A DNA stretch of 18,834 nucleotides from a virus: IMG/VR virus record IMGVR_UViG_3300045988_036394; one strand, 5' to 3'. The translations under genes were made by a program, and so were the position numbers. The number at the start of each line of letters is the position of its first letter. Within the stretch, counting starts at the first letter, position 1. Positions 1 to 18,834 of this stretch are shown here, piece by piece. The notes under the pieces were generated by a model, which saw only the letters and a list, made by a program, of their open reading frames with translations, made no database searches and was not told where the DNA came from.

Positions 1-42
1 CTGCGCATGTCTCGTGGGCTCGGAGATGTGTATAAGAGACAG
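1..42. other. Illumina Nextera (Tn5) library adapter, not biological sequence
   Basis: Bases 9-42 read GTCTCGTGGGCTCGGAGATGTGTATAAGAGACAG, the Nextera read-2 adapter ending in the 19-nt Tn5 mosaic end. Bases 1-8 (CTGCGCAT) sit where the i7 index lies in the PCR primer. Confidence 0.95.
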
Positions 43-210
43 GGTGTGGGGTTGTGTGAAGATTTTCCCTTGTGGTTTTTTTTATTTGTGTATTATTTTT
101 TTTTGTTCTGTGTCACCGTTGACGCTTTGTTTTATTCCAGTCTCTATTATATTTTTTTTATACTAACCTGTTAAGTTTTTTTTATTTTGGGCGTGTCGTT
201 CGTTTGTTTG

Positions 211-219
211 TGTTATATT
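211..219 (+). promoter_or_regulatory. Candidate extended -10 promoter box (TGTTATATT) for the ITR gene
   Basis: A TGnTATATT box lies about 33 nt upstream of ATG 252, with the SD AAGGGAAAGGAAA in between. I see no good -35. The same TGnTATAAT-like box type recurs in the other main intergenic regions. Confidence 0.35.
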
Positions 220-251
220 GTAGTTATCCGCTTCAAGGGAAAGGAAATAAA

Positions 252-452
252 ATGATTAACAACAGCATCGTCAAGGATTACGCCGGGGGCTGTATTCTGA
301 ACAGTGACCAGCAGCTCGATGATTTCGATATTGATGCGATTGTTGAGAATCTGCGTCATGTGGCTTTGGTCAATGATGTGGCTATTGATGGATATGATGA
401 TTGTGATTCGTTTCCGGCTGATGATTTTATGGAAGCGTTCGAGGAAGCGTGA
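252..452 (+). CDS. ITR-encoded 66-aa highly acidic protein (left copy), function unknown
   Basis: ATG 252 is preceded by the SD AAGGGAAAGGAAA. The TTG at 204 used in the track lacks an SD. Product is MINNSIVKDY...DDFMEAFEEA with 13 D and 4 E against 1 K and 1 R. A bidirectional terminator follows. Confidence 0.7.
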   Translation: MINNSIVKDYAGGCILNSDQQLDDFDIDAIVENLRHVALVNDVAIDGYDDCDSFPADDFMEAFEEA

Positions 453-463
453 GAGATAAAGTT

Positions 464-494
464 AAAAGCCCTAGGCTAACAGCCTAGGGCTTTT
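464..494. terminator. Bidirectional rho-independent terminator
   Basis: AAAAGCCCTAGGCT-AAC-AGCCTAGGGCTTTT forms an 11-bp stem flanked by an A-run and a T-run. It lies between the convergent ITR gene (+) and the endolysin gene (-). Confidence 0.8.
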
Positions 495-500
495 ACTTTA

Positions 501-1166
501 TCATACGAGGTATTGTGTCGTACCGTTCACGGGCTTTAGTGCGACATATCGGGTTTTGCCTGATCTGCCTACGTAGTGTGCCCAAATGTAGCCGTCTTCG
601 ATTGTGGTGCCGCTCATGAGGTTGACTGTCTGCCCTTTGCGGTATTGTGCCACGACTGCACTGTGGATACTGGGTGCCGAGCGTACGTTGAGCACTGACA
701 CGTTGACGCGATAGGTGCGTGCGGCGATTGTGACGGTGTTGGTGTTACCGTTGCTATTGTTGTTGTTTCGGGGGTGAAAGTAGCCTATGATGCCGTTTTT
801 GCTGATATTAAGGTATCCGGTTTTATTAGGATTTTGTGATATGGTGGTGAGCGTGCCGTTGCCGTTGTCTTTGATAACGATAGCGACGTGGTTCATTCCG
901 CTGCGTTTCCAAAACGCCACGTCGCCGTACACGGGCGTATAGTTGGCTGACTCTTTGGTGAAAGTATTTTGCAGTGCGCGGGAGCGGTCATAACGTGCAG
1001 TGTAGACGCTTGCCGCATATCCGTCTACCGTGTTAGTGTCGGCGGCTGGAATACCGTACACGTTACGCGCGTAGGAACTCCACAAGTCCCAGCACTGACC
1101 ACCATACGCGCCGTCCATGTCAATGGTTTTGCCGTTGACTGAGTTAATCCACTCTTGGATATTCAT
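501..1166 (-). CDS. Endolysin: N-terminal CHAP peptidase plus C-terminal SH3b cell-wall-binding domain
   Basis: CHAP signature DMDGAYGGQCWDLW ... GDVAFW ... NHVAIV ... SQNPN. An N-rich linker follows, then an SH3b-like YRVNVSVLNVRSAPS...GYIWAHY. SD AAAGGAG upstream. It is the last gene of the lysis cassette. Confidence 0.9.
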   Translation of the reverse strand: MNIQEWINSVNGKTIDMDGAYGGQCWDLWSSYARNVYGIPAADTNTVDGYAASVYTARYDRSRALQNTFTKESANYTPVYGDVAFWKRSGMNHVAIVIKDNGNGTLTTISQNPNKTGYLNISKNGIIGYFHPRNNNNSNGNTNTVTIAARTYRVNVSVLNVRSAPSIHSAVVAQYRKGQTVNLMSGTTIEDGYIWAHYVGRSGKTRYVALKPVNGTTQYLV

Positions 1167-2928: not shown

Positions 2929-4152
2929 TTAGAATGCGGGTGGATTAGATTTTCCATCCCACACGCTCAAAAGCGAGTACGCTTGGTTGTATCGTGTTGT
3001 GTACGGGCCGAACGGAAACGTGCTTAGAATGTTGTTTTTAAGCTGTGCGAGGTTCGATGCTTTCGGCACCTTGAGAGCGTTGGCGGGCGACTGGTGATAT
3101 GCAGTTGTCCAAAGAATCTGCATCTTGACGTCATCGTACTGCTTCGGATAGCCCGCGTAGTCTTCCGCGAACTGCTTGCGTTGACCGTCACGCGACTCAT
3201 TGCGTCCCGCCCACGTGCGAAACGCTGTTGCTTCCGCCGAGGTGAGCGAACGCTTGAACGTACCGCCCGACTCCATGAGTGCCGCTATTTCAGGCGCGGC
3301 GGCCTTGAACGCATTGTATCCGGTTGAGTCAGCGGCTTTCATCGCGTTCAACACTTGCAAGCGTCGCTCGAAACTCCATTGCGCAATGCCAATGCCCTGC
3401 AAGTTCGCGGCTTCGACTGCATCCCAGCGCAAACCCGCCTCAACCGTGCCGACGACATAGAGGGCGTACGAATTTTCTGGCGATATCGAGGTGGATGGAT
3501 GCGCCTGTCCGTTGTTGCTGGACGGCTGTGATTGCGACGCCTTTTCTGAAAAATTATTGGCGGTGGTCCTGTGGAATATGCGGGTCCGCGTTCCAGCATT
3601 ATCGCTTTCATGCAAGTAGAGGTTATCGCCTTGCCAGTGTATCCACGCGCCACCGCGCGCGGAGTCGGGGGAACCGTGGCTATTGTCTCCTGTCGGGTTC
3701 TTCTCCGTCGAGGTTGTGCCACCCCCTTCGCCAAGCGCCTTCGGGTGAAGATAGCCTAAGAATGCAGTTAGGTCGAACGTCATGCGCTGCGCTGGATTAG
3801 GGTTTTGAGACAATACGGTGATGCGTCCGTTATGCACGCCGTCCTCCATGACAATGCTCACGTGCGAGCCGGTATGTTGGCTTGAGAAATTCCAGAACGC
3901 CACGTCACCTTTGACGGGACTGTAATTGGCGGGCTTCTTCTCGAAAATCTGCGCCATCTTCGCATTCGTGGGGAAACGCGTATAATTGCCTTCGGCGTAT
4001 CCGGTTGGCGTGATGCAATCGCTTACGGACGCACCGTATAGATCCATGCAATATTTGGCCCACAAGTCCCAACATTGAGCGCCATACGCCCCGTCCATGT
4101 CCCAGAACCGGCCTTGAGTCTGTTTAATCCAATCATCAAAAGTAATAGCCAT
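2929..4152 (-). CDS. Tail-associated peptidoglycan hydrolase: N-terminal CHAP plus C-terminal lysozyme-like domain (functional analogue of phi29 gp13)
   Basis: The N-terminus is paralogous to the endolysin CHAP (DMDGAYGAQCWDLW, GDVAFW, SHVSIV, SQNPN). G/S/T-rich linkers follow. The C-terminal domain has TVEAG...GIGIAQWSFERR, typical of the phage tail lysozyme family. The gene occupies the gp13 slot after the appendage genes. Confidence 0.8.
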   Translation of the reverse strand: MAITFDDWIKQTQGRFWDMDGAYGAQCWDLWAKYCMDLYGASVSDCITPTGYAEGNYTRFPTNAKMAQIFEKKPANYSPVKGDVAFWNFSSQHTGSHVSIVMEDGVHNGRITVLSQNPNPAQRMTFDLTAFLGYLHPKALGEGGGTTSTEKNPTGDNSHGSPDSARGGAWIHWQGDNLYLHESDNAGTRTRIFHRTTANNFSEKASQSQPSSNNGQAHPSTSISPENSYALYVVGTVEAGLRWDAVEAANLQGIGIAQWSFERRLQVLNAMKAADSTGYNAFKAAAPEIAALMESGGTFKRSLTSAEATAFRTWAGRNESRDGQRKQFAEDYAGYPKQYDDVKMQILWTTAYHQSPANALKVPKASNLAQLKNNILSTFPFGPYTTRYNQAYSLLSVWDGKSNPPAF

Positions 4153-4187: not shown

Positions 4188-5729
4188 TTAATGGAAGCAG
4201 CTCATGGAGAAGTCAAAATCGAGATAGCCTGCTCCGCCCTCGCCCTGTAGCATGTCAATGACGCTGAACGATTGACCGTCGAACTTGATTTTCACGTACG
4301 ATTCGTTGGACTCCTTGACTCCAATGAGAGGTATCCACGTGCCAAACCTGCTAGTCGAGTTGACAGTAGCGAAAGCGCTGGTATTCCACTCCGTCTTATT
4401 GCCACGGAACTGGAAATGAACGTTCAGGCCATCAATAAAAATCCCCAGCGAACCGTCCGTAACACCGGGTAAGCTAACGTTCGTGTAACGTTCGATTCGT
4501 TTCGCTCTGCCGGTTTTGATGCCGAGGGCGACATATTGAGCATACGTTTCCGAGCCTTGCGTATTAGGGTGGATATCCGTCATACCGGAACCCCAAAACA
4601 GACCCCACGAAGGCGCATCATACACGACTTTCACAGCTGCATGACGTCCGCCTTCAGTCATAACCCCATACTTCTGGGCTTGGTCATAGCTGGGCCAAGA
4701 ATTATCCCACATCATAGGAATCTGCACGACTTCCGCATTGGGGAACAATGTTTTTGCGGTGGTGAGCGTGTCGTACACAATGGATTCCGTTACGGCTGAT
4801 ACCGAATCGTTACGGCCACCGCCGACAACCACATATTTCACGGCATTTTTCTTTGCGCCGAGGTCTGCTGATGCCTGTTGAATCTGCTGCTTAAACGTCT
4901 TATTCTTCGTGCCGCCAATCGTATAACCAGACCCGCCGACAGCATAATTACAGCATTTGAGTCCGAGCAGTCCGGCCGCCTTGACGATCATACTGTCCGT
5001 AGCCGGATTATCGGTGCGGAAGCCCTCGAAATACGAGTCGCCAATACCCACCAAGAGAGTCTGTTCGACGGGCTTGGGCGCATACTTGCCGTCCGACTCA
5101 AGCTTGGTGTAAGTATTGTCCCAGCGTGCTTTTTTGGCTGCCGCATTATCCACATTGCCAGCGCCTAATGCGGCGAGTATCGCGCTGTTTGAGTCGGCCT
5201 TGCTGATTGCGGAAGTGGCGTCCGTGCTTGCTTTATCCCACTTTGCTTTATTTGCCGTCGCGTGAGCGGTGGTGTCGGCGCCCAGCGCGGTGAGGATACT
5301 ACCGTTTGAGTCGGCCTTGCTGATTGCGGAAGTGGCGTCCGTGCTTGCTTTATCCCACTTTGCTTTATTTGCCGTCGCGTGAGCGGTGGTGTCGGCGCCC
5401 AGCGCGGTGAGGATACTACCGTTGGAGTTTGCTTTTTTGGTTGCGGTGGCGGCGTCAGCCATTGCTTCGATGGAGGCCGTACTCGCTTTGTCCCACTTGG
5501 TTTTCGCGGTGGTTGCATTGTCTACAGTGTTATCTCCAAGCAGCGCCTTGACCACTTCTTCATCGTGCGTTTCACGCGACTCTACGACTTCGATGCGATT
5601 GAGATGCGTCTCTAAAGTCGTATCGATAGTGCGCATGCTGCCATTGTAGCCGTCGCGCAAGTCTGCGGGGTCATTGTCGCCGTACAGATTCAGGCCGTAA
5701 TTATCGGTTTTGGTGTATACGGTAGCCAT
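4188..5729 (-). CDS. Appendage/tail-fibre protein with an SGNH (GDSL-type) esterase domain
   Basis: The N-terminal module YGLNLYGDNDPADLRDGYNGSMRTIDTTL is shared with the two upstream genes. About 3.5 copies of a 39-aa repeat (..KWDKAST..SILTALGAD..) follow. SGNH blocks are GIGDSY, a GxSG-like region, VVGGGRND and TDIHPN. The C-terminus looks beta-rich. Confidence 0.8.
   Translation of the reverse strand: MATVYTKTDNYGLNLYGDNDPADLRDGYNGSMRTIDTTLETHLNRIEVVESRETHDEEVVKALLGDNTVDNATTAKTKWDKASTASIEAMADAATATKKANSNGSILTALGADTTAHATANKAKWDKASTDATSAISKADSNGSILTALGADTTAHATANKAKWDKASTDATSAISKADSNSAILAALGAGNVDNAAAKKARWDNTYTKLESDGKYAPKPVEQTLLVGIGDSYFEGFRTDNPATDSMIVKAAGLLGLKCCNYAVGGSGYTIGGTKNKTFKQQIQQASADLGAKKNAVKYVVVGGGRNDSVSAVTESIVYDTLTTAKTLFPNAEVVQIPMMWDNSWPSYDQAQKYGVMTEGGRHAAVKVVYDAPSWGLFWGSGMTDIHPNTQGSETYAQYVALGIKTGRAKRIERYTNVSLPGVTDGSLGIFIDGLNVHFQFRGNKTEWNTSAFATVNSTSRFGTWIPLIGVKESNESYVKIKFDGQSFSVIDMLQGEGGAGYLDFDFSMSCFH
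5187..5423. repeat. Perfect tandem direct repeat, period 117 bp (39 codons), about 2.03 copies, inside the fibre gene
   Basis: Positions p and p+117 are identical for p = 5187-5306. More diverged copies flank it, so the protein-level repeat region is about 5091-5516. Confidence 0.9.
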
Positions 5730-13103: not shown

Positions 13104-13137
13104 AAAATAAAATGACCCCCGCAATCACGCGGGGGTC
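13104..13137 (-). terminator. Strong rho-independent terminator (end of the early/replication unit or of the ncRNA)
   Basis: Minus strand reads GACCCCCGC-GTGATT-GCGGGGGTC, a 9-bp GC-rich stem, followed by ATTTTATTTT. Confidence 0.85.
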
Positions 13138-13272
13138 TAACTGTCCTATCAGAGCGCGAGTTGAAAATCGTAGGGCACTACCGCCACGGTAGTGACTCCA
13201 TGTTCGGCGGCATTCTCAGCCGTGGCAATCCGACTCATATTACTCCCAGTCGAAAATCGACGCTCACAAGAC
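13104..13272 (-). ncRNA. Candidate structured non-coding RNA of about 165 nt (possible packaging RNA, pRNA)
   Basis: It is bounded by a consensus extended -10 box (13279-13287) and the terminator. The predicted 5' end (13272-13261) can pair with 13156-13143 as 5+5 bp around an internal loop. That helix encloses hairpins at 13249-13261, 13208-13222 and 13176-13194. It sits downstream of the polymerase gene in the same orientation, like the phi29 pRNA. The alternative reading is a 43-aa ORF at 13149-13280. Confidence 0.35.
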
Positions 13273-13278
13273 TCAATC

Positions 13279-13287
13279 ATTATAGCA
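13279..13287 (-). promoter_or_regulatory. Consensus extended -10 box TGCTATAAT overlapping the polymerase stop codon
   Basis: Minus strand reads ...CATGCTATAATGATTGAG. The TAA stop is inside TATAAT. The predicted start is about G13272. No -35 is visible. Confidence 0.45.
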
Positions 13288-14731
13288 TGACCATTGTGCC
13301 GTAATCATCCATGACTTGCGTTCCATGTCTAAACCTCTCGTACGGGATTGGCTGGGAAAACATGTTTCCGGCCATGCAGACATCCACTTCACCGTCATCT
13401 CGCCACCCCTCATAACGGTTCATTCCAAGGATGGTCAGTTTTTCGTATCGTGCGGCAATCTTCCATTTGCCAAGTTCGGTTGGATGTATGTCACATGATT
13501 CCACCGGCTCCCAACCGCTCAGAATGCAACCATCCGTGTTCGCGTACAAGACTCGGTCAGAGTTGGCGTGGCATACGTCCATAAGCTTGCGGCGGGCGTA
13601 AGCATTGACCCAAACCGGAACAGGCAAATAGTCGGTTTTTAGATTCGATTCTTCACGTTGCGTGACATTCCAGTCGAGAGTGATGCCGTCTTTGGATAAA
13701 GGGAGCATGACGGCGCCTTTTGGGAGACTCGCCATTTTACCTACAAGCGCGTTCATAATAAGTTTCGCCATCTGCCGTTTCTCGCCAGTTGACTTCTGTT
13801 TCAGCCCCCCCCATTCATCGACAAACGAACGGAAGAAGCCTTTGGAGCGCCTGAACTTCCACCCCCTTACATGCCGGTAGACGCTCACGTCATAGTTTTC
13901 GTTGAGCAATTGTTGGTCAATGTCAGTGAGCACGCGCGTGACGTAACCACGTGTCGAGGCAAAGCGGTTGAGTCCGTACACGCTGCGGTTGTCTAACAAA
14001 ATGGGGTATCCGTCTGGTTTAAGTTCCGCGCGAAACGTAAGTTCATCGCAATGCAATGGCATGTCATTATCCTGCTTGTATTTGCCGTCGTATGGTTCCG
14101 GTTCACCCCACGGCAACCACTCGTCACGCAGAATACTGGGATACATGCTATTGCAATCAACGTCGATAGCCTTGCCATAAAATCCTTCTCTGGTCAGCAT
14201 GAAACCGCCGATATAGGCGTCATGCAATGACTTTTTGGTATCCGACTCAAGTTGTGGAAATTTGTCGTAATACCATTTCCACTCGCCGGACGCGAAAGCT
14301 TCCATGCTTGCACCTCCTGCGGTGATTTTACATAATCCACGGTTGCCGTATTCTCTCAGGATGTTGAGCATTTGGGTATCGGTCATGGTGAGACGGCAGT
14401 TCTCCCGTAAAAGATTTGATATGTCGAAAAAACGTGCGGAATTTTCTCGGTCAATACGCACGCTAAAACTGAAAAACTTGCCCTTTTTCGAGACAATCGC
14501 ATCCCAACTTAAGTTAGAGTTGTGTTCGTTATGTGGGAGGGAGTGTACGACGTGAGCCATAAACGGTTCAAGCAATTCTGGATTAGTCACGTAGACGGTG
14601 AGTTTGCCGCCTGACATGATGGACGCCAAAAGGCGATTTGGCGCGGTGACGTCACGCAGGACGGTTCCGTCCGTACAGCGTATGACGTTATCCGCGCACC
14701 ACAATCCTATCCTTTTGTCTTGCGTAGTCAT
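13280..14731 (-). CDS. Family-B protein-primed DNA polymerase (phi29 gp2-like), compact 483-aa form
   Basis: Motif A is IDVDCNSMYPS, motif B is KLIMNALVGKM and motif C is LYANTDGC. GLCKITAGGASMEAF matches phi29 GLDRMTAGSDSLKGF, and C-terminal LGKWKIA and VCMAGN match LGYWAHE and KCAGM. I prefer the start at M21 of the track ORF (ATG 14731, SD AAAGGA), which removes the overlap with the upstream gene. Confidence 0.93.
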   Translation of the reverse strand: MTTQDKRIGLWCADNVIRCTDGTVLRDVTAPNRLLASIMSGGKLTVYVTNPELLEPFMAHVVHSLPHNEHNSNLSWDAIVSKKGKFFSFSVRIDRENSARFFDISNLLRENCRLTMTDTQMLNILREYGNRGLCKITAGGASMEAFASGEWKWYYDKFPQLESDTKKSLHDAYIGGFMLTREGFYGKAIDVDCNSMYPSILRDEWLPWGEPEPYDGKYKQDNDMPLHCDELTFRAELKPDGYPILLDNRSVYGLNRFASTRGYVTRVLTDIDQQLLNENYDVSVYRHVRGWKFRRSKGFFRSFVDEWGGLKQKSTGEKRQMAKLIMNALVGKMASLPKGAVMLPLSKDGITLDWNVTQREESNLKTDYLPVPVWVNAYARRKLMDVCHANSDRVLYANTDGCILSGWEPVESCDIHPTELGKWKIAARYEKLTILGMNRYEGWRDDGEVDVCMAGNMFSQPIPYERFRHGTQVMDDYGTMVML

Positions 14732-14757
14732 GGTATAATTCCTTTGCTTACCGTCCG

Positions 14758-15819
14758 CTATTTTTCCAGTGCGCCCGCTTCCGTCATCCACCTATCGAAC
14801 TGCTGCCTTGAGCGCTGATAGCCCTTGCTATTGTCGCGGAATATCGACGTGAAACCGTGCCGAACTGGGTCATACACTGTCCAGTCGAACACGATACGGG
14901 GGGCGTCCGTCTGTTCGATGAACGCGCGTTTTTGCGCTGCCGATAGGCCACGGAATCGTTTCAAGCGTTTTGAGCCGAGCGTGGTAGCCAAGATTTTCTC
15001 AAAAACCTCATAGCGTCCGCGCGACATGTAAGATGGCCATTTATGTTCTTCATACAAGTCTTTGCCCTGTTTGCCTGTTCCCCGCTTTTTGGACGGTTTG
15101 CGTTTCTGCTCGGTACGCAGCCCCAGTATTTCTGCTACGTCGTGCATCTGCTCACGCAATTCATTGCGATGGCCGCTTTCCAGTTGAGAGCGCACGAAAG
15201 CTTCATCACTCAGAACGTTCGTCATTTGCAAAAAATCAGTGAGTTTTGACGGGATTATCTGGTTACGCCCAAACCCCTCGCCGGTGGTTCCGGTGATTTC
15301 AGCCACTCGCTGCTCATACACGCTACGTTGCGGCATTGCCTGATATCTGTTCCATTCGTTGATTTTCCGTCGTGCCGCATTGATTTTCCGCTGCTGCTGC
15401 CTGAGCAGTTTACGTCGTTTCACCACCGGCTCCGCGCTGATCTGTGCGTCCGAGATGGGCGCACGCTGGGCAAACATGTAATCTTTCTTCGTCGGCTTCT
15501 CAGCAGCGGCGGCATGGTATGGTGTTGCTTTCGCGTCCGCTATGGCCTGTTTCTTTTGCCGTTCCCACTCCTTGCCTAACGTTTTCGCGATATTAACTAG
15601 TTGTTTGTCTGCGGTTTTGGCGAGATTCGAGTGAGAGTACGAGCCAAGCTGCGTAACATTACGCGCGGCACGTGCTTGCGCGGCCTGTATCTTCTTAATG
15701 TGCTTGCGTTGCTGTCTATCGGCTTTGATGGCAACGCTGCTAATGTCCGGCTTTTGGTGGGTGCGATAATTCTGTGACACGACTGCGCGGGGTGCTGGTT
15801 TCTTCCTCTTCCCTGACAT
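14758..15819 (-). CDS. Putative terminal protein (replication primer)
   Basis: It lies immediately upstream of the polymerase gene, as phi29 gene 3 does. The 353-aa product is very basic, with N-terminal MSGKRKKPAPR and further K/R clusters. I could not align it to phi29 TP by eye. The start is taken at ATG 15819 (SD AAAGGA), because the longer track start lies inside a hairpin. Confidence 0.55.
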   Translation of the reverse strand: MSGKRKKPAPRAVVSQNYRTHQKPDISSVAIKADRQQRKHIKKIQAAQARAARNVTQLGSYSHSNLAKTADKQLVNIAKTLGKEWERQKKQAIADAKATPYHAAAAEKPTKKDYMFAQRAPISDAQISAEPVVKRRKLLRQQQRKINAARRKINEWNRYQAMPQRSVYEQRVAEITGTTGEGFGRNQIIPSKLTDFLQMTNVLSDEAFVRSQLESGHRNELREQMHDVAEILGLRTEQKRKPSKKRGTGKQGKDLYEEHKWPSYMSRGRYEVFEKILATTLGSKRLKRFRGLSAAQKRAFIEQTDAPRIVFDWTVYDPVRHGFTSIFRDNSKGYQRSRQQFDRWMTEAGALEK

Positions 15820-15841
15820 GGTTGCAGTCCTTTCAGATAGA

Positions 15842-15866
15842 GAGAGCACCCAATAGGGGTGCTCTC
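15842..15866 (-). promoter_or_regulatory. 10-bp stem-loop between the SSB and terminal-protein genes (possible attenuator or mRNA stabiliser)
   Basis: GAGAGCACCC-AATAG-GGGTGCTCTC. On the minus strand it is followed by UCUAUCU, a weak U-tract, and then the SD of the TP gene. Confidence 0.4.
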
Positions 15867-18135: not shown

Positions 18136-18369
18136 TCAATACACCACACTATAAAAATAAGCCATATATTCACCCCCAACGACACGCCTTGGCGGGAACT
18201 GGCTAACATGAGCGTAAAGCATGACTCCCTTCAAGCAGAGGACCCTACGCAAAGCCTCATAAGAGTCTTTGGCGTGAACCACACGATAACTACGAGTCGG
18301 AGTTTCCACTTGGAGATAGTCAACACAAGACCAATCAACTACGATATACGTATGCTCTCTCACAATCAT
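18136..18369 (-). CDS. Hypothetical early protein (77 aa), first gene outside the right ITR
   Basis: This is internal M55 of the 131-aa track ORF. The SD AGGAAGGGAGA lies directly upstream. The longer form would overlap the ITR gene out of frame. Confidence 0.55.
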   Translation of the reverse strand: MIVREHTYIVVDWSCVDYLQVETPTRSYRVVHAKDSYEALRRVLCLKGVMLYAHVSQFPPRRVVGGEYMAYFYSVVY

Positions 18370-18382
18370 TCTCCCTTCCTGC

Positions 18383-18583
18383 TCACGCTTCCTCGAACGC
18401 TTCCATAAAATCATCAGCCGGAAACGAATCACAATCATCATATCCATCAATAGCCACATCATTGACCAAAGCCACATGACGCAGATTCTCAACAATCGCA
18501 TCAATATCGAAATCATCGAGCTGCTGGTCACTGTTCAGAATACAGCCCCCGGCGTAATCCTTGACGATGCTGTTGTTAATCAT
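18383..18583 (-). CDS. ITR-encoded 66-aa highly acidic protein (right copy), first gene of the early operon
   Basis: Identical to 252-452(+). Here no terminator follows it, and the next gene starts 13 nt downstream. Confidence 0.7.
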   Translation of the reverse strand: MINNSIVKDYAGGCILNSDQQLDDFDIDAIVENLRHVALVNDVAIDGYDDCDSFPADDFMEAFEEA

Positions 18584-18615
18584 TTTATTTCCTTTCCCTT
18601 GAAGCGGATAACTAC

Positions 18616-18624
18616 AATATAACA
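18616..18624 (-). promoter_or_regulatory. Mirror copy of the ITR extended -10 box, likely the early promoter of the right-end operon
   Basis: Reverse complement of 211-219. It sits upstream of the first gene of the long minus-strand early operon. Confidence 0.35.
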
Positions 18625-18792
18625 CAAACAAACGAACGACACGCCCAAAATAAAAAAAACTTAACAGGTTAGTATAAAAAAAATATAATAGAGACTGGAA
18701 TAAAACAAAGCGTCAACGGTGACACAGAACAAAAAAAAATAATACACAAATAAAAAAAACCACAAGGGAAAATCTTCACACAACCCCACACC

Positions 18793-18834
18793 CTGTCTCT
18801 TATACACATCTCCGAGCCCACGAGACATGCGCAG
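18793..18834. other. Illumina Nextera (Tn5) library adapter (reverse complement of 1-42)
   Basis: CTGTCTCTTATACACATCTCCGAGCCCACGAGAC followed by ATGCGCAG. This is the exact reverse complement of bases 1-42. Confidence 0.95.

What the first reader, a model, noticed from the sequence alone, without database searches (positions are those of the whole stretch)
43..453. Perfect 411-bp inverted terminal repeats that each contain a whole transcription unit
The right end (18382-18792) is the exact reverse complement of 43-453 wherever I compared it. Identity stops 1 nt after the stop codon of the gene inside the repeat. The left copy then meets a bidirectional terminator, while the right copy runs straight into the SD of the next early gene.

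Protein-primed phages need ITRs, but the ones I know are short and non-coding: 6 bp in phi29, 236 bp in Cp-1 and roughly 110 bp in PRD1. Here the repeat holds T-tract origin-like DNA, an extended -10 box, an SD and a complete ORF. The gene is therefore present in two copies and is read inward from both termini. It is also the first gene on whichever end enters the cell first.
Basis: partly seen in the sequence, partly recalled or inferred. Interest (0 to 1): 0.7.

Follow-up and report, generated by a model that had tools for sequence, protein, structure and literature searches.

The report
Phage end repeats carrying a duplicated gene
This is the near-complete linear genome of a small phi29-like Bifidobacterium phage whose two ends are identical 411-bp inverted repeats that hold the replication origin, an early promoter and one whole small acidic gene. 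It is a rare variant of an end design that is otherwise normal for this phage group.

Summary
Bases 1-453 are the exact reverse complement of 18382-18834. The outer 42 nt at each end are Nextera adapter plus index, so the phage repeat is 43-453 / 18382-18792 (411 nt). It ends 1 nt after the stop codon of a 66-aa ORF.

The window is a protein-primed, phi29-like podophage about 80% identical to Bifidobacterium phage BP1. Eighty related contigs show that 230-440-bp ITRs are the family norm. Each ITR holds an almost invariant terminal block, a conserved outward promoter and an inward early promoter with SD. In most genomes the repeat stops at the ATG, because the two ends carry different first genes drawn from a variable menu.

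Here, and in L043, L077 and L074, the same gene sits in both slots, so the repeat runs through it. Both of the window's junctions also occur separately in other genomes, and L074's two copies diverge near the gene's 3' end. An assembler palindrome is therefore unlikely.

Long, promoter-bearing ITRs are already known: Mycoplasma phage P1 (350 bp), asccphi28 (577 bp) and BadAargau2 (227 bp). The only new feature is a complete gene inside the repeat. The gene is under purifying selection, folds confidently into four helices and has no known relatives. Its function is inferred only.

The parts
1..42 (.). Library adapter, not phage DNA: 8 nt in the index position plus the 34-nt Nextera transposase adapter. 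Mirrored at 18793-18834.
   Evidence: Exact match to GTCTCGTGGGCTCGGAGATGTGTATAAGAGACAG at offset 8 on both strands. Sequence read.
18793..18834 (.). Right-end copy of the adapter plus index.
43..453 (+). Left inverted terminal repeat (phage part, 411 nt). It probably lacks about 8-16 nt of the true terminus.
   Evidence: 100% identity to 18382-18792. (relatives' contig ends extend further..GTGGGAGGGGTGTGGG.. and GGAGGGAGGTGGGAGGGG..).
18382..18792 (-). Right inverted terminal repeat.
43..112 (.). Terminal block, T-rich and nearly invariant across the clade. Inferred origin of protein-primed replication. Mirrored at 18723-18792.
   Evidence: Across 23 distinct genomes the commonest base holds 0.96-1.00 of each column over 53-112 and 0.90 over 43-52, while the genomes differ by about 15-25% elsewhere. 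The origin function is inferred.
146..174 (-). Outward-facing sigma-70-type promoter (TTAACA, 17 nt, TATAAT) pointing at the DNA end. Mirrored at 18661-18689 (+).
   Evidence: 11 of 12 matches. The relative L008 has a perfect TTGACA-17-TATAAT. The hexamers are conserved and the spacer varies in 23 relatives. The run-off RNA is unstructured, z = 0.04. Function unknown.
190..219 (+). Inward early promoter: conserved box GGCGTGTCG, then TTTGTTTGTG, then the extended -10 TGTTATATT. Mirrored at 18616-18645 (-).
   Evidence: this composite motif occurs only in the two ITRs of the window. (conserved in relatives). BP1 has a second copy ahead of its next early gene.
235..245 (+). Shine-Dalgarno region AAGGGAAAGGA, 6 nt before the ATG. 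Mirrored at 18590-18600 (-).
   Evidence: Sequence. Conserved in the family alignment.
252..452 (+). Left copy of the 66-aa acidic ORF ('family D', net charge -15). It is monocistronic.
   Evidence: 144 homologues; 41 aligned ones have 88% mean column identity. Median dN/dS 0.23. AF2 pLDDT 92.7 with four helices. No hit in PDB, BFVD, Pfam or PHROGs.
18383..18583 (-). Right copy of the same ORF, the first cistron of the early operon.
463..495 (.). Bidirectional intrinsic terminator just outside the left ITR, shared with the convergent endolysin gene (501-1166, -).
   Evidence: 15-bp stem with T-runs on both strands. The same junction follows this gene at the late end of L030, L042 and L012.
18136..18369 (-). 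Next early gene (77 aa), with SD GGAAGGGAG at 18371-18379. It starts 13 nt after the stop of the right ITR ORF.
   Evidence: The same junction is found in L007.
13280..14791 (-). Protein-primed family-B DNA polymerase.
   Evidence: PF03175, E = 7.7e-28.
14758..15849 (-). Candidate terminal protein: 363 aa, pI 10.5, lying between the SSB and polymerase genes.
   Evidence: Gene order SSB, then this ORF, then pol, as in Av-1 and the Curtobacterium phages Ayka and Mantle. A homologue lies directly upstream of the polymerase gene in BadAargau2 (E = 3e-20). The match to the Cp-1 TP is weak (E = 0.04). No family hit. The assignment is inferred.

Best explanation
The window is the almost full-length linear genome of a phi29-like, protein-primed podophage of Bifidobacterium. 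Its ends are genuine inverted terminal repeats built to a plan shared by the whole clade.

The plan, reading inward from each terminus:
1. About 70 nt of nearly invariant T-rich DNA, which I infer is the origin where terminal protein and polymerase start.
2. A conserved promoter that fires outward.
3. The early promoter (GGCGTGTCG box plus extended -10) and a strong SD that fire inward.

In most members the repeat stops at the ATG. Each end then continues into a different small gene taken from a variable menu of mostly acidic ORFans. The late-end gene is a one-gene unit closed by the terminator it shares with the lysin gene. The early-end gene heads the early operon.

In this genome the same menu item, a 66-aa four-helix protein with net charge -15, occupies both slots. 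Sequence identity between the ends therefore continues through the whole ORF. It stops 1 nt after the stop codon, where the flanks differ (terminator on the left, SD of the next gene on the right).

Most likely origin (inferred): recombination between phages carrying the gene at opposite ends, or a single crossover between inverted molecules, followed by the end-to-end homogenisation that keeps ITRs of protein-primed genomes identical. That process is known from adenovirus as panhandle or strand-switch repair; I cite this from memory.

Consequence (inferred): the gene is diploid and is transcribed at once whichever end enters the cell. Its likely role is an early host-takeover or anti-defence factor.
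For: Repeat and anatomy.

Phage identity:
- Pfam hits to PolB_2, Phi29_MCP, connector, gp9 and gp16.
- About 80% nucleotide identity to Bifidobacterium phage BP1, plus matches to BD811P1-3.

ITRs are real in the clade:
- Most of the near-full-length related contigs compared end against end have terminal inverted repeats.
- Several are imperfect (L055 374 nt at 95.7%, L085 238 nt at 94%, L052 and L068 at 98.2%), which an assembler palindrome cannot produce.
- BP1's left end abuts a TruSeq adapter within about 8 nt of where this contig abuts a Nextera adapter.
- Contig ends from many assemblies cluster within about 10 nt of each other.

The repeat normally ends at the ATG, with different first genes at the two ends: L008 359/356, L014 357/354, L020 439/433, L026 354/352, L030 360/358, L042 355/353 and others.

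The first-gene families (labelled A-L) are variable:
- Families A, B and D occur at either end.
- Among the nearest relatives by nucleotide identity whose ends are assembled (83-86%; L022, L024, L018, L008), the first genes belong to other families (A at the late end, C or H at the early end); in the closest one, L009, the early-end slot is missing from the contig.

Both window junctions exist separately elsewhere:
- The left junction matches L030, L042 and L012.
- The right junction matches L007.

The same gene sits at both ends in three more lineages that are only 74-78% identical to the window:
- L043: D at both ends, and the repeat also ends 1 nt after the stop.
- L077: D plus its terminator lie inside the repeat.
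- L074: family B at both ends, with the copies identical up to about 4 codons before the stop and different after that.

The ORF is a real gene:
- 144 homologues, almost all 66 aa.
- Median dN/dS of 0.23.
- pLDDT of 92.7.
Against: - No reads are available, so 2x coverage and junction support were not checked.
- The perfect identity of the copies, and the clustering of ITR differences in the innermost 15-60 nt in relatives, could partly reflect bubble merging by assemblers.
- The terminal protein is assigned by position and charge only.
- The true termini are missing from the contig.
- Nothing ties the 66-aa protein to a function. There is no hit in Pfam, PHROGs, PDB or BFVD.
- The homogenisation mechanism is borrowed from adenovirus and was not shown here.
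Confidence: 0.75

Rival explanations
1. Assembly artefact or strain chimera. The phage has the 66-aa gene at only one end. The other copy arose because the assembler reused one terminal unitig, or merged two co-occurring strains, one with the gene at the late end and one with it at the early end.
For: - The two arms are identical down to the adapter, as expected if one graph node was used twice.
- The gene does occur at only one end in L007, L080, L039, L030, L042 and L012, so both parental types exist in nature.
- No read data were available.
Against: - Both junctions must have been present in the reads for the contig to be built.
- Each junction is found independently in other genomes.
- The same both-ends arrangement occurs in three further assemblies from diverged lineages, one of them with non-identical copies (L074).
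- A strain chimera needs two strains sharing 411 identical nt at opposite ends.
Confidence: 0.1
2. The duplication is real but recent and passive. One crossover between inverted molecules, or between two phages, put the gene at both ends. The copies are identical only because too little time has passed, and no active homogenisation extends the ITR.
For: - Cassette exchange is fast relative to core divergence.
- In L077 the repeat ends in the conserved terminator, an obvious crossover site shared by both ends.
- L074 shows a sharp switch from identity to divergence, like a crossover point.
Against: - The window and L043 differ from each other (73% aa identity, dS 0.28), yet each has two identical copies. 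That requires independent recent events in each lineage.
- The outer 180-360 nt of the ITRs examined are perfect, while the inner edge carries the differences. This fits continuing end-inward correction, although an assembler effect is possible.
Confidence: 0.3
3. The ORF in the repeat is not a functional gene. The repeat is long only because replication or packaging needs about 400 bp of cis-acting DNA.
For: The protein has no known family, and this allele carries G12 G13 C14 where the family has E D Y.
Against: - Median dN/dS of 0.23.
- 88% mean column identity across the 41 aligned homologues.
- A confident fold.
- Most relatives replicate with ITRs that stop at the ATG and carry other genes there, so this DNA is not needed in cis.
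Confidence: 0.03

Closest known systems
Mycoplasma phage P1 (NC_002515), 350-bp ITR
   Same: It is a small podophage with its own DNA polymerase gene and a possible terminal protein annotated. The perfect ITR contains an annotated promoter reading inward at both ends, and it stops at the first base of the first gene's start codon. This is the same design as most relatives of the window.
   Different: No ORF lies inside the repeat. There is no sequence similarity, and the host and gene order differ.
Lactococcus phage asccphi28 (EU438902), 577-bp ITR
   Same: It is a phi29-like phage with an ITR longer than this one. The depositors annotated inward and outward promoters and a terminator inside the ITR.
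   Different: No CDS is annotated inside the ITR, and the first genes start 18-37 nt beyond it.
Streptococcus phage Cp-1 (236 bp perfect, about 350 bp imperfect) and Actinomyces phage Av-1 (about 210 bp, 94%)
   Same: Both carry an annotated terminal protein and DNA polymerase. Early genes at both ends read inward, and promoters lie in or next to the ITR. Cp-1 also has an outward promoter annotated in its ITR.
   Different: The ITRs are non-coding and shorter.
Bifidobacterium phages BP1, BD811P1-3 and BadAargau2
   Same: BP1 and BD811P1-3 belong to the same clade (73-86% identity in the polymerase protein). BadAargau2 is a more distant Bifidobacterium phi29-like phage. BP1 has an ITR of at least 148 nt, probably about 236 nt, ending at the ATGs of two different genes. 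BadAargau2 has a perfect 227-nt ITR ending 3-4 nt before both first ATGs.
   Different: None has a gene inside the repeat. The deposited BP1 and BD811P records have damaged or missing ends, and the papers I could search do not describe their ITRs.
Diploid genes in the terminal repeats of poxviruses, ASFV, rudiviruses and Streptomyces linear replicons; long TIRs of fungal linear plasmids (from memory, not tested)
   Same: Genes lying inside terminal inverted repeats are present twice and evolve in concert. The inner boundary of the repeat shifts between strains.
   Different: Most of these have hairpin ends or much larger repeats. None is a small tailed phage.

Membership tests
phi29-like protein-primed podophage | Family-B DNA polymerase of the protein-primed type | tested here: met
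   PF03175 DNA_pol_B_2, E = 7.7e-28, for 13280-14791 (-). tblastn matches polymerases of phi29-like phages.
phi29-like protein-primed podophage | phi29-type morphogenesis and packaging genes (MCP, connector, tail knob, gp16 ATPase, lower collar) | tested here: met
   PF25622, PF05352, PF20934 and PF05894. PHROG lower collar / adaptor Ad4.
phi29-like protein-primed podophage | Terminal protein gene next to the polymerase gene | tested here: inconclusive
   A 363-aa ORF with pI 10.5 sits between SSB and pol, as in Av-1, Ayka and Mantle. There is no family hit. BLASTP to the Av-1 TP gives E = 0.9 and to the Cp-1 TP gives E = 0.04. A homologue sits directly upstream of the polymerase gene in BadAargau2.
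phi29-like protein-primed podophage | Protein covalently bound to the 5' ends; short terminal base reiteration for sliding-back | not testable with these tools
   The true termini are absent from the contig. Relatives end in G-rich repeats (GGGAGG..GGGAGGGG), but at ragged positions.
Genuine inverted terminal repeat of a linear genome (not an assembly artefact) | The same sequence, inverted, at both physical ends | tested here: met
   100% over 411 nt. Ends from independent assemblies and two library types coincide within about 10 nt. Relatives have imperfect ITRs.
Genuine inverted terminal repeat of a linear genome (not an assembly artefact) | Both ITR/unique junctions supported by reads, with about 2x depth over the repeat | not testable with these tools
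   No reads were available. Indirect support: each junction is seen on its own in other genomes.
ITR that encloses a complete transcription unit | Promoter, RBS, ORF and terminator all inside the repeat | tested here: not met
   The promoter, SD and ORF are inside. The terminator at 463-495 is outside the left copy, and the right copy has none. The feature is met in the relative L077.
DNA-mimic or anti-restriction early proteins (Ocr, ArdA, phi29 p56 type) | Sequence or fold similarity to a known member | tested here: not met
   No hit in Pfam or PHROGs, by PDB sequence profile, or by Foldseek against PDB and BFVD (best E about 3). Only the small size, net charge of -15 and first-gene position resemble them.

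The most novel reading that the evidence does not exclude
The two genome ends of this phage clade are paired, hypervariable 'first-gene slots' for anti-defence or host-takeover proteins, driven by an identical ITR-borne promoter. A terminus-inward gene-conversion process tied to protein-primed replication copies whatever is homologous next to the ITR from one end to the other. Under this reading the ITR boundary is set simply by where homology runs out, and a favoured gene can be made diploid and independent of which end enters first. The 66-aa acidic four-helix protein would then be a new kind of early inhibitor.
Probability: 0.25. Interest if true: 0.6.

Novelty: new variant of a known kind. 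Interest (0 to 1): 0.42.

Why it matters
For phage biologists, this shows that ITRs of protein-primed phages are not only origins. In this gut-phage clade they carry the main early promoter, and the inner edge of the repeat moves with the neighbouring gene.

This gives a natural system for two tests:
- whether the ends of protein-primed genomes homogenise each other, and in which direction;
- what the first-expressed genes of Bifidobacterium phages do.

On the practical side, the deposited genomes of the cultured relatives (BP1, BD811P1-3) have wrong or missing ends. This contig also carries adapter at both ends, which should be trimmed.

Tried and rejected
- **pRNA or other known RNA in the ITR.** Rfam at E <= 1 gave only chance-level hits elsewhere. 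The RNA that the outward promoter would make is unstructured, z = 0.04.
- **Function of the 66-aa protein.** PHROGs, Pfam, a PDB profile search, tblastn against phage records, and Foldseek against PDB and BFVD all returned nothing significant.
- **Nine other first-gene families.** No Pfam or PHROG hits.
- **Source record of the window.** The exact protein is in the protein collection on an 18834-nt contig, but it is not in the gene-position index.
- **Close homologues P0002-P0004.** These gave only one genome half each.
- **Exact 31-mer of this allele's 3' end.** No match in metagenome or viral contigs.
- **Degenerate 17-mer.** Mostly random matches, not usable for counting both-ends genomes.
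- **Terminal protein by similarity to the Av-1 TP.** Not significant.
- **Literature.** No paper in the library describes ITRs of Bifidobacterium podophages or an ORF inside a phi29-like ITR.
- **Fold-back (MDA-type) palindrome.** Rejected, because the inverted copy lies at the far end of the genome and not next to its partner.

Full report
**1. The observation**

The window has a single long inverted pair, 1-453 against 18382-18834, at 100% identity. Exact extension from the ends stops at base 453.

The outermost 42 nt on each side are not phage DNA. Positions 9-42 are the 34-nt Nextera transposase adapter, and the 8 nt before it sit where the index would be.

Inside the repeat:
- An extended -10, TGTTATATT, lies at 211-219 behind a GGCGTGTCG...TTTGTTTGTG element.
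- The SD AAGGGAAAGGA lies at 235-245.
- A 66-codon ORF occupies 252-452, and its mirror occupies 18383-18583.
- Identity ends one base after the TGA.

The left copy is followed by a 15-bp-stem bidirectional terminator at 463-495 and then the convergent endolysin gene. The right copy is followed by GGAAGGGAG and the ATG of a 77-aa gene at 18369. Every factual element of the finding holds.

**2. What the genome is**

All substantial genes except the left ITR ORF lie on the minus strand. Pfam identifies the following:
- a protein-primed family-B polymerase (PF03175)
- a phi29-type capsid protein
- a connector
- a tail knob
- a gp16 packaging ATPase
- two CHAP lysins

PHROGs adds an SSB and a lower collar protein. 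A 363-aa basic ORF between SSB and polymerase sits where Av-1 and the Curtobacterium phages encode their terminal protein. It has no significant similarity to them.

The DNA is about 80% identical to Bifidobacterium phage BP1 and also matches BD811P1-3. The host is therefore almost certainly a human-gut Bifidobacterium.

**3. Family context**

A scan of IMG/VR with the tail protein returned 80 related contigs.

*ITRs are the norm.*
- Most near-complete contigs have terminal inverted repeats. Lengths of exactly 55, 99 or 119 nt look like assembler k-mer overlaps, but about 25 contigs have 230-440 nt.
- Several repeats are imperfect: L055 (374 nt, 95.7%), L085 (238 nt, 94%), L052 and L068 (98.2%). 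An assembler that reused one unitig could not produce these.
- The contig ends cluster within about 10 nt of one another.
- In the BP1 GenBank record the real left end (position 292) directly follows a TruSeq adapter. It lies about 8 nt further out than the point where this contig meets its Nextera adapter.
- The ends are therefore physical ends, and this contig lacks roughly 8-16 nt of each.

*ITR layout.* An alignment of 23 distinct ITRs shows the following:
- Window positions 53-112 are 96-100% conserved, in genomes that otherwise differ by 15-25%.
- Next comes an outward-facing TTGACA-17-TATAAT promoter. Its hexamers are conserved and its spacer is not. It matches 12 of 12 positions in L008 and 11 of 12 here.
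- Then come the inward promoter and the SD.
- The window and BP1 lack a module of about 140 nt that most relatives carry between these elements.

*Where the repeat ends.*
- In nearly every relative with both ends assembled, the repeat ends 0-6 nt after the ATG. The two ends then carry different small genes.
- I grouped these first genes into families A-L. A, B, D and K occur at the late end. C, E, F, G, H, I, D and A occur at the early end.
- Most families are acidic, and none of the ten scanned (nine of these families and BP1 gp26) has a Pfam or PHROG match.
- The closest relatives (83-86% identity) whose ends are assembled carry different first genes from the window; in L009, the closest, the early-end slot is not assembled. 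These slots therefore turn over fast.

**4. Why the repeat contains a gene here**

The window's ORF belongs to family D.
- D is found at the early end only in L007, L080 and L039.
- It is found at the late end only in L030, L042 and L012.
- It is found at both ends in the window, L043 and L077.

The window's left junction (TGA GAGATAAAGT..terminator) is the junction seen in L030, L042 and L012. Its right junction (TGA GCAGGAAGGGAGAATGATTGTGAGAG) is the one seen in L007. Both junctions are therefore natural.

The other both-ends genomes show different boundaries:
- In L043 the repeat also stops 1 nt after the stop codon.
- In L077 it runs on through the terminator.
- In L074 a family-B gene sits at both ends, and the two copies are identical up to about 4 codons before the stop and then differ.

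These four genomes are only 74-78% identical to one another in the core, so the arrangement arose repeatedly. The simplest reading is that the ends are kept identical from the terminus inward as far as homology allows. With different first genes, that point is the ATG. With the same gene in both slots, it is the stop codon.

In relatives with imperfect ITRs, all differences lie in the innermost 15-60 nt. This fits end-inward correction, but bubble merging by assemblers could mimic it. The correction mechanism (panhandle or strand-switch repair of ITRs, as in adenovirus) is cited from memory and was not shown here.

**5. The gene**
- 144 homologues were found, almost all 66 aa long. Their longest contigs are about 18-19 kb, and many sit on short fragments.
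- Mean column identity over the 41 aligned homologues is 88%, and median dN/dS is 0.23.
- AlphaFold gives four helices at pLDDT 92.7.
- Foldseek against PDB and BFVD, and a PDB sequence-profile search, found nothing.
- Net charge is -15.
- An early anti-defence or host-takeover role is an inference from size, charge, position and cassette-like turnover only.
- The composite ITR promoter motif occurs nowhere else in the window. The right copy's promoter is therefore probably the main early promoter, while the left copy's promoter serves only this gene.

**6. Comparison with what is known**

GenBank records show the following:
- Mycoplasma phage P1 has a perfect 350-bp ITR with a promoter, ending at the first gene's ATG.
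- asccphi28 has a 577-bp ITR with predicted promoters and a terminator.
- Cp-1 has 236 bp perfect and about 350 bp imperfect, with inward and outward promoters.
- Av-1 has about 210 bp.
- The honeybee Bifidobacterium phage BadAargau2 has a perfect 227-bp ITR ending 3-4 nt before both first ATGs.
- Bacillus phi29-like phages have 6-16 bp (PMC9965433, PMC6266182).

None of these has an annotated ORF inside the repeat. I found no paper describing the ITRs of Bifidobacterium podophages. The finding is therefore a new variant of a known design, not a new kind of element.

**7. Verdict**

The repeat is real and correctly described. An assembler palindrome is unlikely (about 0.1) but can only be excluded with reads. 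Interest is moderate. The length and the promoter are ordinary for non-Bacillus phi29-like phages. The enclosed gene, and the family-wide rule that explains it, are the new part.

Noticed in passing
window 1-42 and 18793-18834: Both contig ends are Nextera adapter (34 nt) plus 8 nt in the index position. This is library contamination that should be trimmed. It also means the contig stops at a transposase insertion site, not at the DNA terminus.
   Followed up: yes
L001 (BP1, PQ571273) 1-291; L002-L004 (BD811P1-3) ends: The BP1 GenBank record starts with a low-quality duplicate of 662-903 and a TruSeq adapter (about 236-291). Its real left end is at 292, and its right end is cut about 88 nt short. 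BD811P2 keeps only a 55-nt overlap of the ITR at each end. BD811P1 and BD811P3 start inside the terminal genes. The ITRs of all four cultured relatives are therefore missing or damaged in the databases.
   Followed up: yes
window about 13105-13287 (- strand): Between the polymerase and scaffold genes lie an extended -10 (TGCTATAAT, 13287-13279), a multi-stem RNA of about 140 nt and a GC-rich terminator. Across 13 relatives, 11 of 36 predicted pairs show compensatory changes, and the single-sequence z-score is -1.8. There is no Rfam match. This is a candidate packaging RNA or other ncRNA.
   Followed up: partly
window 146-174 (-) and 18661-18689 (+); L008 110-138 (-): A conserved, near-consensus outward-facing promoter lies inside every ITR of the clade, about 105-125 nt from the end. 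Its run-off RNA is A-rich and unstructured. Cp-1 and asccphi28 records annotate similar outward promoters. Function unknown.
   Followed up: partly
L008 about 160-300, and most other relatives' ITRs; absent from the window and BP1: An extra module of about 140 nt sits between two copies of the GGGCGTGTCG box. It holds a TTGACACTGTGTCAA palindrome, a GTTACGGTAACGTAACCGTA hairpin and a terminator-like hairpin followed by a T-run. It may be a small RNA unit or an operator/insulator.
   Followed up: no
both ends of L006-L085: The first gene after each ITR is drawn from at least 10 unrelated families of small, mostly acidic ORFans, and these swap between ends and between close relatives. They form two hypervariable early slots.
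   Followed up: yes
window 285-293 (codons 12-14 of the ITR ORF): This allele has G-G-C where at least 90% of the aligned homologues have E-D-Y. dN/dS against relatives is higher for the window (0.24-0.46) than for most other pairs. This could reflect relaxed or shifted constraint in the duplicated gene.
   Followed up: no
window 5116-5466 (- strand gene 4188-5729): Three tandem 117-nt (39-aa) repeats at 64-76% identity lie in the N-terminal part of a 513-aa tail-fibre-like protein with a GDSL esterase domain.
   Followed up: no
window 1080-1121 and 4060-4101: The two CHAP-domain lysin genes (221 aa and 407 aa) share a 42-nt stretch at 88% identity at their 5' ends. This could be a recombination point between the endolysin and the tail-associated lysin.
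   Followed up: no
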